IMG/VR virus record: IMGVR_UViG_3300012983_000033
Location: 64,001-128,000 of that record
DNA from: a virus
Lineage: Duplodnaviria; Caudoviricetes
Length of the DNA: 64,000 nt
Reading direction: 5' to 3' (one strand)
Shown here: in pieces, positions 43,797 to 45,922 of the stretch
Numbering within the stretch: the first letter of the stretch is position 1
Layout: each line of letters opens with the position of its first letter
Notes under the pieces: generated by a model
Told to the model about the DNA's origin: nothing
What the model saw: only the letters and a program-made list of their open reading frames with translations
The model's database searches: none
Made by a program: the position numbers and the translations under genes

Positions 43797-44402
43797 TTAG
43801 TCAATAAAAAGATTATTCTTTAATTTGTATTCATATGCTTTTTCAATAATTCCAAAAGCAATATCAACTTCACCATTTTCAAGGTCGTGTGCTTCAATAT
43901 AATCTTCATATTCTCTATATACTTTGAAGATTTTTGTAAAATGTTCTCTTGTAAACTCATATTGTTGATTATTTACACGAGCCGCAAAATCAAGAATTCT
44001 ATTACGCTTTGATTCAAGATACAAATCAGTTAAAACAGTATCAATATTATCAATTTTTTCAGACATATTTTTGATTGAACTATCATAATTATCTGCTTGA
44101 CCATTAACCCATTTTATCCAATTATCTCTCTTTTTAATATTATCATCGTCATAGTGAGAATTAACATCATCTAAGAGAGTTCTTACCTCAGCCAATGTAT
44201 TTTTAGAATCTTCAAGAGCTGTCTTTATTTCGCGTTTTTCTTCTTTTCTTCGTCTAAAAAACTTTCTAACTTTCATAAATTCTGGAACTACCTTACCTTT
44301 AAATTCCAGAAGTTCGCCAATTAACTACATAACTAAATATCCAGCAATAATGCAGGTGGCGATTGTACCGGGGATCCCCAAAAATTCAACTAAACTTACC
44401 AT
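43797..44402 (-). CDS. Holin-like / lysis-cassette membrane protein, one in-frame TAG
   Basis: GAGGTG RBS, ATG 44402, TM helix, VM(TAG)LIGELLEFKGK joined in frame to 43797..44276. Confidence 0.7.
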
Positions 44403-44426
44403 TGTATCACCACCTCACCCGCTGCA

Positions 44427-44765
44427 TTATTCAACTGAATCTATATATGTGGCTACTTTTGTATTTGCTTCCCATTTTTTCTTAGCATCTTCAAGACCTT
44501 CATTAACCCATTTTTCAAGAGTTTTCACGGGAATGAATCTTGAAAGAGAAGGAAGCTTCTCATAAATTTGTGCAACAACACTTGAAAGTTTAAGTTCACC
44601 AGTGCCGCCGCCGTATTGTTTTTCTGCTTCCGTAACAAGAGAAAAGAGCATTTTGAAAACAATATTTTTTTCTTGCTTAATTACGCCAATAATCGCTACT
44701 CCAATAACTATAAGAGCAGCTAGGATAGAATCCCAATTGGCTAAAATGAAATTCCAAACATTCAT
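44427..44765 (-). CDS. Holin (LL-H-like)
   Basis: N-terminal TM; LV.EAEKQYG.GTG.LK motif; next to amidase. Confidence 0.7.
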   Translation of the reverse strand: MNVWNFILANWDSILAALIVIGVAIIGVIKQEKNIVFKMLFSLVTEAEKQYGGGTGELKLSSVVAQIYEKLPSLSRFIPVKTLEKWVNEGLEDAKKKWEANTKVATYIDSVE

Positions 44766-44779
44766 TTGCTATTCCTCCA

Positions 44780-45922
44780 TTATTCAAAATCTTTTGCATC
44801 TACCCAGCCATAAACAGTTGAGCCTTTTCCAGCAACACGAACCAAATGATATGGATGCTTACCATCTTTTTTGATATTTGTAATTTTAGCTTCACCTGAT
44901 TTACATTTTGTGCCAAGTGAAGAATTTGAAGAAAGATAATGCTTTGTTCCTTTAAAATTAACAATATCGCCTTTCTTGTAAACTTTTGGTGTAGCTGCAA
45001 CTGGCGCTTTAATGTCGTTAATATTAACCCAACCAGTAACCTGACCTGCTTTACCAACTTTATCTTTTGAAATTGTAATACGAACTCTGCCATTAACAAC
45101 TTCATTACTCCAAAGATAGAAATTTCCATTTTTCTTATTTGATTCAGTAGCAGCTACAGAACTTGCAAATACTTTTGTATTTGAAAGTTTTACAACATCT
45201 CCTGCCTTACCGTATGTTTCTGTTTTTGAAGTAGAAGGTTTTGTTGTAGGAGTTGTTGGTTTTGTTTGTGGTGCGGCTGGTTTTGTTTCCTTATTTTTTA
45301 ATTCATCATAATATTTTTTGACATTTTTAAGGAATGTAGACCAGTGCGGCAAGATGTAAATTGGACAATTCTTGCTTGGATAAAAATACTTATGAGTATA
45401 GACATCTGTTGCAGGATTGAGTCCATATTTGTAGCAAAGATAAGCTACAAGTTTTGCTGTTGTGTTTTCTGACTCTGCAAGATTTCCAATACACTCAATA
45501 GCAATTGTGTCAAGGTTGCCGCCGATTTTTGAACCATCAGGACGCTGAGAAGTTCTACGAGAAGAACCATCGGCCGCGTGCCATCCACGTTCATTGTCAT
45601 TTAAGTTCTACCAAATTTCTGTTTTCCAAACATAATAGTGAACTACAACACCTGACATATTACCATTAAAGGTTGCGCGTGTGTATTGTTCTGCTGGAGT
45701 TGTGCCAGAAGCTACTTTAATATCACCAGTGTTGTGAACTGTGATGCCTTTTGGTTTTCCTGTTCCGTCGCTAAGCTTTTTACAAGGCTTCATCTTGGCG
45801 CCTTTCTTTATCCAAGAAGCCACATTTTTTGTCGCAACTAATGAATCAGGAATAATTTTTTGTTTGATTGTAAGACCGTTACTAGTTTTTACAGTCTTAT
45901 CTGGTTTTAAAAATGTTGCCAT
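44780..45922 (-). CDS. Endolysin, N-acetylmuramoyl-L-alanine amidase (Amidase_2) plus cell-wall-binding domains, one in-frame TAG at 45608
   Basis: ITVHNT, HYYV..EIW(TAG)NL...GWHAADG...GN..TIAIE...THK...KNCP; GWV-ending SH3-like repeats. Confidence 0.9.

What the first reader, a model, noticed from the sequence alone, without database searches (positions are those of the whole stretch)
43797..45922. Lysis genes each gated by a single amber codon
Seen: the endolysin TAG (45608) lies after the first Zn ligand (HNT) but before the GWH motif and the downstream His/Cys ligands, so termination leaves an incomplete 104-aa catalytic fragment. The holin-like gene 43797..44402 has TAG at codon 26, right after its TM helix. 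The LL-H-like holin between them has none. Inference: suppressor level acts as a lysis timer or safety catch.
Basis: partly seen in the sequence, partly recalled or inferred. Interest (0 to 1): 0.7.

Follow-up and report, generated by a model that had tools for sequence, protein, structure and literature searches.

The report
Amber codons in phage lysis genes
The two stop codons inside this gut phage's cell-bursting genes are real, but they are ordinary glutamine codons in a phage that reads TAG as glutamine throughout its late genes, which is a known phenomenon and not a special lysis switch.

Summary
Observation confirmed. The Amidase_2 endolysin (44780..45922, -) has one in-frame TAG at codon 105. 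The 201-aa membrane protein (43797..44402, -) has one at codon 26. The 112-aa holin between them has none.

These TAGs are not specific to lysis genes. The window belongs to a complete 139.7-kb phage that reads TAG as Gln. About 219 in-frame TAGs lie in 67 of 192 called genes, mostly late ones, with 57 in one 3295-aa protein. The genome has one Gln-type suppressor tRNA(CUA) and does not use TAG as a sole terminator.

Both lysis TAGs sit on conserved glutamines: Q in 119 of 119 near-length endolysin homologues, and Q in 113 and N in 4 of 119 homologues of the membrane protein. Lysis genes use TAG for 2 of 13 Gln codons, against 22.6% in the structural genes (Fisher p = 0.74), so the pattern matches chance.

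Relatives do not keep the TAGs. All 15 distinct endolysin loci and all 80 loci of the membrane protein family have CAA, CAG or AAY at these sites. An independently recoded phage places its TAG elsewhere in the gene.

The timer or safety-catch idea is the published, untested hypothesis of Borges et al. Here it fits only as a general late-gene gate. It leaves the holin ungated, and it gates lysis proteins far less than tail proteins. Low novelty.

The parts
44780..45922 (-). Endolysin, 380 aa: N-acetylmuramoyl-L-alanine amidase (Amidase_2) followed by a C-terminal SH3-like wall-binding region, with one in-frame TAG
   Evidence: Pfam PF01510 at 61.4 bits; phrog_15001 endolysin at 3e-45; XlyA alignment; 2434 homologues
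45608..45610 (-). TAG at codon 105 of the endolysin, standing on an invariant Gln (W-Q motif)
   Evidence: Q in XlyA. CAA or CAG in 15 of 15 distinct relatives' DNA. Q in 119 of 119 near-length homologues and 84 of 85 aligned short ones
44427..44765 (-). 112-aa holin candidate with one N-terminal TM segment, distantly LL-H-like, no TAG
   Evidence: phrog_15303. No direct Pfam hit. 24 of 87 of its homologues hit PF09682 Holin_LLH. GGAGG lies 8 nt before the ATG
43797..44402 (-). 201-aa membrane-anchored all-helical protein: N-terminal TM helix, a basic cluster, then a helical C-terminal domain. Last gene of the lysis cassette, function unknown, one in-frame TAG
   Evidence: 894 homologues, no Pfam family; AF2 pLDDT 80.7, all helical; no PDB fold match; the family lies downstream of peptidoglycan hydrolases
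44325..44327 (-). TAG at codon 26 of the 201-aa gene, on a conserved Gln/Asn inside the TM helix
   Evidence: Q26 nearly invariant in A1. CAG 34, CAA 27, AAY 19, TAG 0 in 80 IMG/VR loci. Q 113 and N 4 in database homologues
43765..43787 (.). GC-rich hairpin with T-runs on both strands; likely a two-way terminator that ends the lysis operon and the convergent endonuclease gene
   Evidence: sequence
31354..31443 (-). The genome's only amber suppressor tRNA (anticodon CUA), of Gln type, with a 16-17-nt insert in the variable region; it lies in a standard-code region
   Evidence: ARAGORN. Rfam tRNA at 55.1 bits. Its D-arm is identical to that of the phage tRNA-Gln(UUG), and it has a 1:72 mismatch and G73
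46635..49496 (-). Upstream genes on the same strand (BspA-type LRR protein and two fibre-like proteins) with 3, 2 and 2 in-frame TAGs; same late module as the lysis genes

Best explanation
The window belongs to a complete 139.7-kb siphovirus-like phage of gut or rumen Clostridia. It uses genetic code 15 (TAG = Gln) in its late genes and in its homing-endonuclease genes. One phage-encoded, Gln-type suppressor tRNA(CUA) reads TAG. The phage carries no release factor and no Gln/Glu-tRNA synthetase, so host enzymes must charge the tRNA (inferred). The TAGs in the endolysin and in the 201-aa membrane protein are synonymous Gln codons, one C-to-T change away from CAG. They occur at the background frequency of this recoded late region and are not held in place by selection. 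Their regulatory effect is the one shared by all late genes: no full-length product forms until the suppressor tRNA is present. That is a coarse on/off gate on late proteins, not a lysis-specific timer. Shown here: the recoding, the Gln identity, the lack of enrichment and the lack of positional conservation. Inferred: the timing of tRNA expression and any gating effect.
For: Genome-wide recoding: ORF density rises from 0.78 to 0.90 and mean ORF length from 152 to 220 aa when TAG is read through. 219 in-frame TAGs lie in 67 of 192 genes, including 57, 23, 9 and 8 in the large tail-module proteins. Only 6 of 169 code-11 ORFs end in a TAG with a TAA or TGA within 25 codons, so TAG is not a sole terminator. 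Gene classes: topoisomerase II, ligase, the NAD module, PhoH and Sak4 are TAG-free, while portal, TerL, Dit and the fibre, LRR and lysis genes carry TAG. TAG = Gln: XlyA has Q at the endolysin site. Q or Q/N is conserved at both lysis sites. At 21 other TAG sites, distant standard-code relatives show Q in 9 of 50 aligned cells against a 4.2% background (P = 2e-4), then K, E and R, with S 2, L 3 and Y 0. The tRNA shares its D-arm, its mismatched 1:72 pair and G73 with the phage tRNA-Gln. No lysis-specific signal: TAG is 0.226 of Gln codons in the structural module and 0.167 in the lysis and fibre module; the endolysin has 1 of 6, the 201-aa gene 1 of 4 and the holin 0 of 3 (Fisher p = 0.74). 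The base after TAG is distributed like the base after CAA/CAG. Not conserved. The same architecture is published.
Against: Two of them, P0129 and P0130, exist only as 159-aa forms that start at the same internal Met as this window's own code-11 call. That suggests an upstream stop, perhaps the same TAG, is shared within the genus. Borges et al. did find lysis families preferentially recoded in two other phage lineages, and a single genome gives little statistical power. There are no expression or protein data.
Confidence: 0.8

Rival explanations
1. Lysis-specific timer or safety catch. The TAGs in the lysis genes are selected so that suppressor tRNA level decides when, or whether, the cell is lysed. 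A possible addition: premature termination in the promoter-proximal endolysin gene could exert nonsense polarity on the TAG-less holin downstream.
For: Both TAGs lie early enough that termination gives non-functional fragments: 104 aa without H177 and C186, and 25 aa. The suppressor tRNA sits in a standard-code region. Borges et al. found lysis families enriched for recoded stops in crAss-like and Agate phages. The 159-aa forms in two close relatives hint that the TAG is shared within the genus.
Against: There is no enrichment over other late genes. The positions are not conserved in 15 and 80 relatives, and they differ in another recoded phage. The holin has no TAG. With readthrough r, yield is r for the lysis proteins but r^57 for the 3295-aa tail protein. 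At r = 0.5 that is 0.5 against 7e-18, so lysis proteins would be released first, the wrong order for a timer. Polarity is pure inference.
Confidence: 0.15
2. The TAGs are true stops. The endolysin and the membrane protein would then be pseudogenes, or be made as split or short products (104 aa plus a C-terminal piece; 159 aa from the internal ATG at 44276).
For: Under table 11 the ORFs are 104, 190 and 159 aa, and the database holds the 159-aa call (P0128).
Against: The reading frame stays open and conserved across each TAG. The residues on both sides align without a break to full-length homologues. The genome has 219 such TAGs and a suppressor tRNA. Met43 of the 201-aa protein is not conserved in the family (M, V, L or I), and no good RBS precedes it. 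The genome is 100% complete with terminal repeats.
Confidence: 0.02
3. TAG is read as a residue other than Gln (Ser, Leu or Tyr), because the suppressor tRNA is 90 nt long with a class-II-like long variable region and G73.
For: ARAGORN reports a 90-nt tRNA with a 16-17-nt variable insert. G2:C71 and G73 also occur in tRNA-Ser (general knowledge).
Against: Both lysis sites are invariant or nearly invariant Gln. At other TAG sites Q is enriched 4-fold, S and L lie below background and Y is absent. The D-arm and acceptor features match the phage tRNA-Gln and not its Ser, Leu or Tyr tRNAs. The insert forms only a 3-4-bp stem.
Confidence: 0.03

Closest known systems
TAG-to-Gln ('code 15') recoded gut phages: crAss-like, Lak, Garnet, Amethyst and Topaz clades (Borges et al., bioRxiv 10.1101/2021.08.26.457843; proteomic proof in crAss-like phages, PMC9523058)
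   Same: In-frame TAG in structural and lysis genes; replication genes in standard code; a phage suppressor tRNA(CUA); low GC (34.6%); TAG-rich homing endonucleases. The proposed role in controlling late and lysis genes is the same idea.
   Different: No release factor or synthetase 'code-change module'. The lysis genes are not preferentially recoded here. The host is probably Clostridia. TerL places the phage among large E3/SPbeta-like siphoviruses.
phAss-1 / 'Phassvirus' group (PMC10607447): 133-138-kb human-gut phages with TAG = Gln
   Same: Similar genome size, about 30 tRNAs including Sup-CTA, tail proteins over 3000 aa, recoded TerL and portal, no dedicated synthetase. That paper also reports that holin recoding differs between close relatives.
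   Different: Only 34% TerL identity. phAss-1 has 2-3 suppressor tRNA genes; this genome has one.
Bacillus prophage amidase XlyA (PDB 3hmb, 3rdr) and endolysins of Faecalibacterium phage Mushu and of Ruminococcus phages
   Same: Amidase_2 fold with the H, H-x6-K-x-C Zn site; Q at the position of the TAG.
   Different: Those genes are written in the standard code. The C-terminal binding domains differ.
Holin_LLH (Pfam PF09682, Lactobacillus phage LL-H holin superfamily)
   Same: About 110 aa, one N-terminal TM segment, next to the endolysin. 24 of 87 homologues of the window protein match the family.
   Different: The window protein itself gives no Pfam hit even at E up to 5.

Membership tests
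Code-15 (TAG=Gln) recoded phage | Many genes are intact only if TAG is read through; coding density rises | tested here: met
   Density 0.78 to 0.90; 219 TAGs in 67 of 192 genes
Code-15 (TAG=Gln) recoded phage | Phage-encoded suppressor tRNA with anticodon CUA | tested here: met
   31354..31443(-); Rfam tRNA at 55.1 bits
Code-15 (TAG=Gln) recoded phage | TAG aligns with Gln in standard-code homologues | tested here: met
Code-15 (TAG=Gln) recoded phage | TAG is not used as a terminator | tested here: met
   Only 6 of 169 ORFs end in TAG with a back-up TAA or TGA within 0-17 codons
Code-15 (TAG=Gln) recoded phage | Gln is actually inserted at TAG in the protein | not testable with these tools
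   Needs proteomics
Preferentially recoded lysis genes (criterion of Borges et al.) | Lysis genes use TAG for Gln more often than other genes do | tested here: not met
   2 of 13 against 126 of 557, Fisher p = 0.74. One genome only, so power is low
Conserved regulatory amber codon | The TAG stays at the same codon in relatives | tested here: not met
   0 of 15 and 0 of 80; L086 has its TAG elsewhere. Relatives above 85% identity could not be read
Amidase_2 endolysin (PF01510) | Pfam score above the cut-off, with Zn ligands His, His, Cys present | tested here: met
   61.4 bits against 26; H63, H177 and C186 align with XlyA
Holin_LLH (PF09682), for 44427..44765 | Match to the family profile | tested here: inconclusive
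   No direct hit; 24 of 87 homologues hit, best 5.6e-6
Holin, for 43797..44402 | Small membrane protein in a lysis cassette that forms lethal holes | tested here: inconclusive
   TM helix and cassette position are met. At 201 aa with a large, probably cytoplasmic, helical domain it is atypical. No family or fold match. Hole formation is untestable here

The most novel reading that the evidence does not exclude
The two single TAGs are kept by selection within this phage genus as an all-or-none safety catch on the lysis operon. The TAG in the promoter-proximal endolysin gene would also lower expression of the TAG-less holin through nonsense polarity, so the whole cassette stays silent until the suppressor tRNA appears.
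Probability: 0.1. Interest if true: 0.5.

Novelty: new member of a known kind. Interest (0 to 1): 0.2.

Why it matters
This is another well-resolved example of a code-15 phage, from the large E3/SPbeta-like siphovirus group that infects Clostridia. It shows that amber codons in lysis genes can simply reflect late-gene codon usage. That matters for annotation: table 11 splits the endolysin and truncates the membrane protein. It also calls for caution when single TAGs are read as dedicated switches. The lysis-timing hypothesis remains untested by experiment.

The by-product with most value is the 201-aa membrane protein family. It has about 900 homologues, has no Pfam family, matches only function-unknown PHROGs weakly, and consistently closes lysis cassettes of Clostridia phages.

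Tried and rejected
- **DNA search of the phage collection:** blastn with the lysis cassette found no match.
- **Short database fragments:** I looked for protein fragments ending at endolysin residue 104, which would betray a shared TAG. There were none.
- **Full-length database proteins:** these cannot be used to infer sense codons. The database also holds a 380-aa read-through call of this phage's own endolysin (P0243), so the codons of P0123-P0127 and P0244 stay unknown.
- **Protein atlas:** A 54%-identical homologue gave only unnamed clusters.
- **Fold search:** Foldseek of the AF2 model against PDB gave no hit with E below 1.
- **Release factor and synthetase:** Pfam RF-1 and the class Ic synthetase family were both absent from the genome.
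- **Promoter scan:** it was uninformative in this AT-rich DNA, with 49 hits against about 32 expected.
- **Internal start at Met43 (dual product):** rejected, because the Met is not conserved and no RBS precedes it.
- **TAG read as Ser, Leu or Tyr:** rejected.

Full report
**What is there.** On the minus strand, 43797..45922 holds three tightly packed genes, each with its own Shine-Dalgarno site.
- The first is a 380-aa endolysin (44780..45922). It matches Pfam Amidase_2 at 61.4 bits against a cut-off of 26, and phrog_15001 'endolysin' at 3e-45. Its tail is SH3-like and resembles endolysins of Roseburia and Faecalibacterium phages.
- The second is a 112-aa protein with one N-terminal TM segment (44427..44765).
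- The third is a 201-aa protein (43797..44402) with an N-terminal TM helix, a basic cluster and an all-helical C-terminal domain (AF2 pLDDT 80.7).

A GC-rich hairpin with T-runs on both strands (43765..43787) closes the operon against a convergent endonuclease gene. TAG is codon 105 of the endolysin (45608..45610) and codon 26 of the 201-aa gene (44325..44327). The middle gene has none. Aligned to XlyA (PDB 3hmb), the endolysin TAG falls after the first Zn ligand (H63) and before W114-H115, H177 and C186.

**Genome context.** The window is bases 64001-128000 of a single 139,671-bp IMG/VR virus record with terminal repeats, rated 100% complete. Reading TAG through raises greedy ORF density from 0.78 to 0.90 and mean ORF length from 152 to 220 aa. 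Recoding TGA instead gives 0.81 and 157 aa; recoding TAA gives 0.88 and 186 aa.

Under TAG = sense, 219 in-frame TAGs lie in 67 of 192 called genes. Some short ORFs over the tRNA array are probably spurious.
- Genes with TAGs: two giant tail-module proteins (57 and 23), Dit (9), portal (2), TerL (2), the fibre and LRR genes upstream of the lysis cassette (2, 2 and 3), and two homing endonucleases (5 and 6).
- Genes without TAGs: topoisomerase II, DNA ligase, the NAD module, PhoH, RNA ligase and Sak4.

Only 6 of 169 table-11 ORFs end in a TAG backed by TAA or TGA within 17 codons, so TAG is not a stand-alone terminator. The genome has 30 tRNA genes and one has anticodon CUA (31354..31443). It has no RF-1/RF-2 domain and no Gln/Glu-tRNA synthetase.

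**Which residue TAG encodes.** The suppressor is 90 nt long because of a 16-17-nt insert in the variable region (Rfam tRNA, 55.1 bits). Otherwise it shares an identical D-arm, a mismatched 1:72 pair and G73 with the phage's own tRNA-Gln(UUG), and does not resemble its Ser, Leu or Tyr tRNAs. The sequence confirms this, but I did not test its meaning.

The protein evidence is stronger.
- Endolysin position 105 is Q in XlyA, in 119 of 119 near-length homologues and in 84 of 85 aligned shorter ones.
- Position 26 of the 201-aa protein is Q in 113 and N in 4 of 119 homologues.
- At 21 other TAG sites aligned to four distant standard-code phages (Geobacillus E3, Enterococcus H1, Alicyclobacillus KKP_3916, MT836163), Q fills 9 of 50 cells against a 4.2% background (binomial P = 2e-4). 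K, E and R follow; S has 2, L has 3 and Y has 0.

TAG = Gln stands.

**Are the lysis TAGs special?** No. TAG makes up 22.6% of Gln codons in the structural module, 16.7% in the lysis and fibre module and 5.8% in the replication module. The endolysin has 1 TAG in 6 Gln codons, the 201-aa gene 1 in 4, and the holin 0 in 3. At the late-gene rate the probabilities of these outcomes are 0.78, 0.64 and 0.46. Lysis genes against structural genes gives Fisher p = 0.74. The base that follows TAG is distributed like the base that follows CAA or CAG.

All 15 distinct metagenome or IMG/VR relatives of the endolysin that cover codon 105 (48-81% identity) have CAA or CAG there and no in-frame TAG in the aligned amidase region. 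This includes the only syntenic one, L003. The longer of these contigs look standard-code, with GC of 0.40-0.54.

In 80 IMG/VR loci of the 201-aa family, codon 26 is CAG (34), CAA (27) or AAY (19), and never TAG. One of them, L086, comes from an independently TAG-recoded phage: GC 0.31, density 0.78 to 0.96, T4-like portal. Its homologue has CAA at codon 26 and a TAG aligned to residue 64.

One caveat remains. The closest relatives (80-96% identity, P0123-P0130, P0244) are known only as proteins. The database mixes table-11 and read-through gene calls, since it holds both the 159-aa and the 380-aa calls of this very phage. P0129 and P0130 are 159-aa forms that begin at the same internal Met as this phage's table-11 call. 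This hints that some genus-level relatives share an upstream stop.

**Mechanism.** Without the suppressor the cell would make a 104-aa amidase stump and a 25-aa peptide, so translation of both proteins does depend on the tRNA. That part follows from the sequence. Three points argue against a dedicated lysis timer.
- The holin, the usual timing and killing component, carries no TAG.
- If readthrough is r per TAG, yield is r for the lysis proteins but r^9 to r^57 for tail proteins. The phage needs r of at least about 0.95 to make even 5% of its 3295-aa protein, and at any lower r the lysis proteins would appear first.
- The positions drift among relatives.

The most economical reading is a global late-protein gate that lysis genes share, with TAG and CAG exchanged nearly neutrally once the code is reassigned. 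Nonsense polarity from the endolysin TAG onto the downstream holin would rescue a cassette-wide catch, but it is speculation.

**Comparison with the literature.** Borges et al. (bioRxiv 10.1101/2021.08.26.457843) describe this architecture in eight phage clades and propose that recoded stops control late-gene expression and lysis timing. Peters et al. (PMC9523058) proved TAG = Gln by proteomics in crAss-like phages. Babkin et al. (PMC10607447) describe 133-138-kb gut phages with the same features and note that holin recoding differs between close relatives. By TerL this phage is nearest to Geobacillus virus E3 (44%), with Phass-1 at 34%. Its endolysin is nearest to those of Faecalibacterium and Ruminococcus phages. 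I found no experimental test of the timer idea.

**The other two cassette genes.** The 112-aa protein has no direct Pfam hit, but 24 of 87 of its homologues match Holin_LLH. 'LL-H-like' is therefore reasonable as distant kinship.

The 201-aa protein belongs to a family of about 900 proteins with no Pfam family, only weak matches to function-unknown PHROGs, and no match to a solved fold. In 36 dereplicated loci the nearest large upstream gene carries a wall-hydrolase domain in most cases: Amidase_2 in 18, Phage_lysozyme2 in 12 and CHAP in 6, counted per family, so one protein may carry more than one domain. A 1-TM ORF of about 110 aa usually lies in between. It is a conserved last gene of Clostridia-phage lysis cassettes with unknown function. 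Calling it a holin is not justified.

**Verdict.** This is a new member of a known kind, of low interest.

Noticed in passing
window 43797-44402 and loci L030-L109: The 201-aa TM plus helical protein belongs to a family of about 900 proteins with no Pfam family, only weak matches to function-unknown PHROGs, and no solved fold. The family consistently sits as the last gene of lysis cassettes (hydrolase, holin or holins, then this gene) in Clostridia phages and prophages.
   Followed up: partly
window 31354-31443 (-): The amber suppressor tRNA is Gln-like but carries a 16-17-nt insert in the variable region. The insert's small hairpin loop contains CUG, the normal Gln anticodon.
   Followed up: partly
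window 37409-37485 (-): ARAGORN calls a tRNA with an 8-nt anticodon loop (anticodon 'caat'). It may read four bases, or be a degenerate Leu or Ile tRNA.
   Followed up: no
window 23006-23959 (-) and 50098-51150 (+): The TAG-rich genes outside the late modules include two homing endonucleases (HNH with 5 TAGs, GIY-YIG with 6). The second lies directly before a helicase fragment (51163-52257), so that gene may be interrupted. Borges et al. saw the same bias for an intron endonuclease.
   Followed up: partly
L025:5987-7384 (-) (genome 45987-47384, outside the window): A 465-aa protein just upstream of TerL matches a PHROG 'sigma factor' (3.8e-13, no Pfam hit) and has 3 TAGs inside that region. 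If it is a late sigma factor, late transcription would itself depend on suppression.
   Followed up: partly
L086 (IMGVR_UViG_3300024270_000045, 102.8 kb): A separate TAG-recoded phage (GC 0.31, T4-like portal, a neighbouring gene with 14 TAGs) carries a homologue of the 201-aa protein that is not next to an obvious endolysin.
   Followed up: partly
window 43385-43780 (+): A TAG-free HNH/DUF559-type endonuclease gene converges on the lysis operon and shares its hairpin terminator.
   Followed up: no
window 555-959 (-) and genome 37343-37675 (-): In two ORFs a TAG is followed immediately by TGA or TAA. These may be leftover TAG stops backed by a working stop codon.
   Followed up: no
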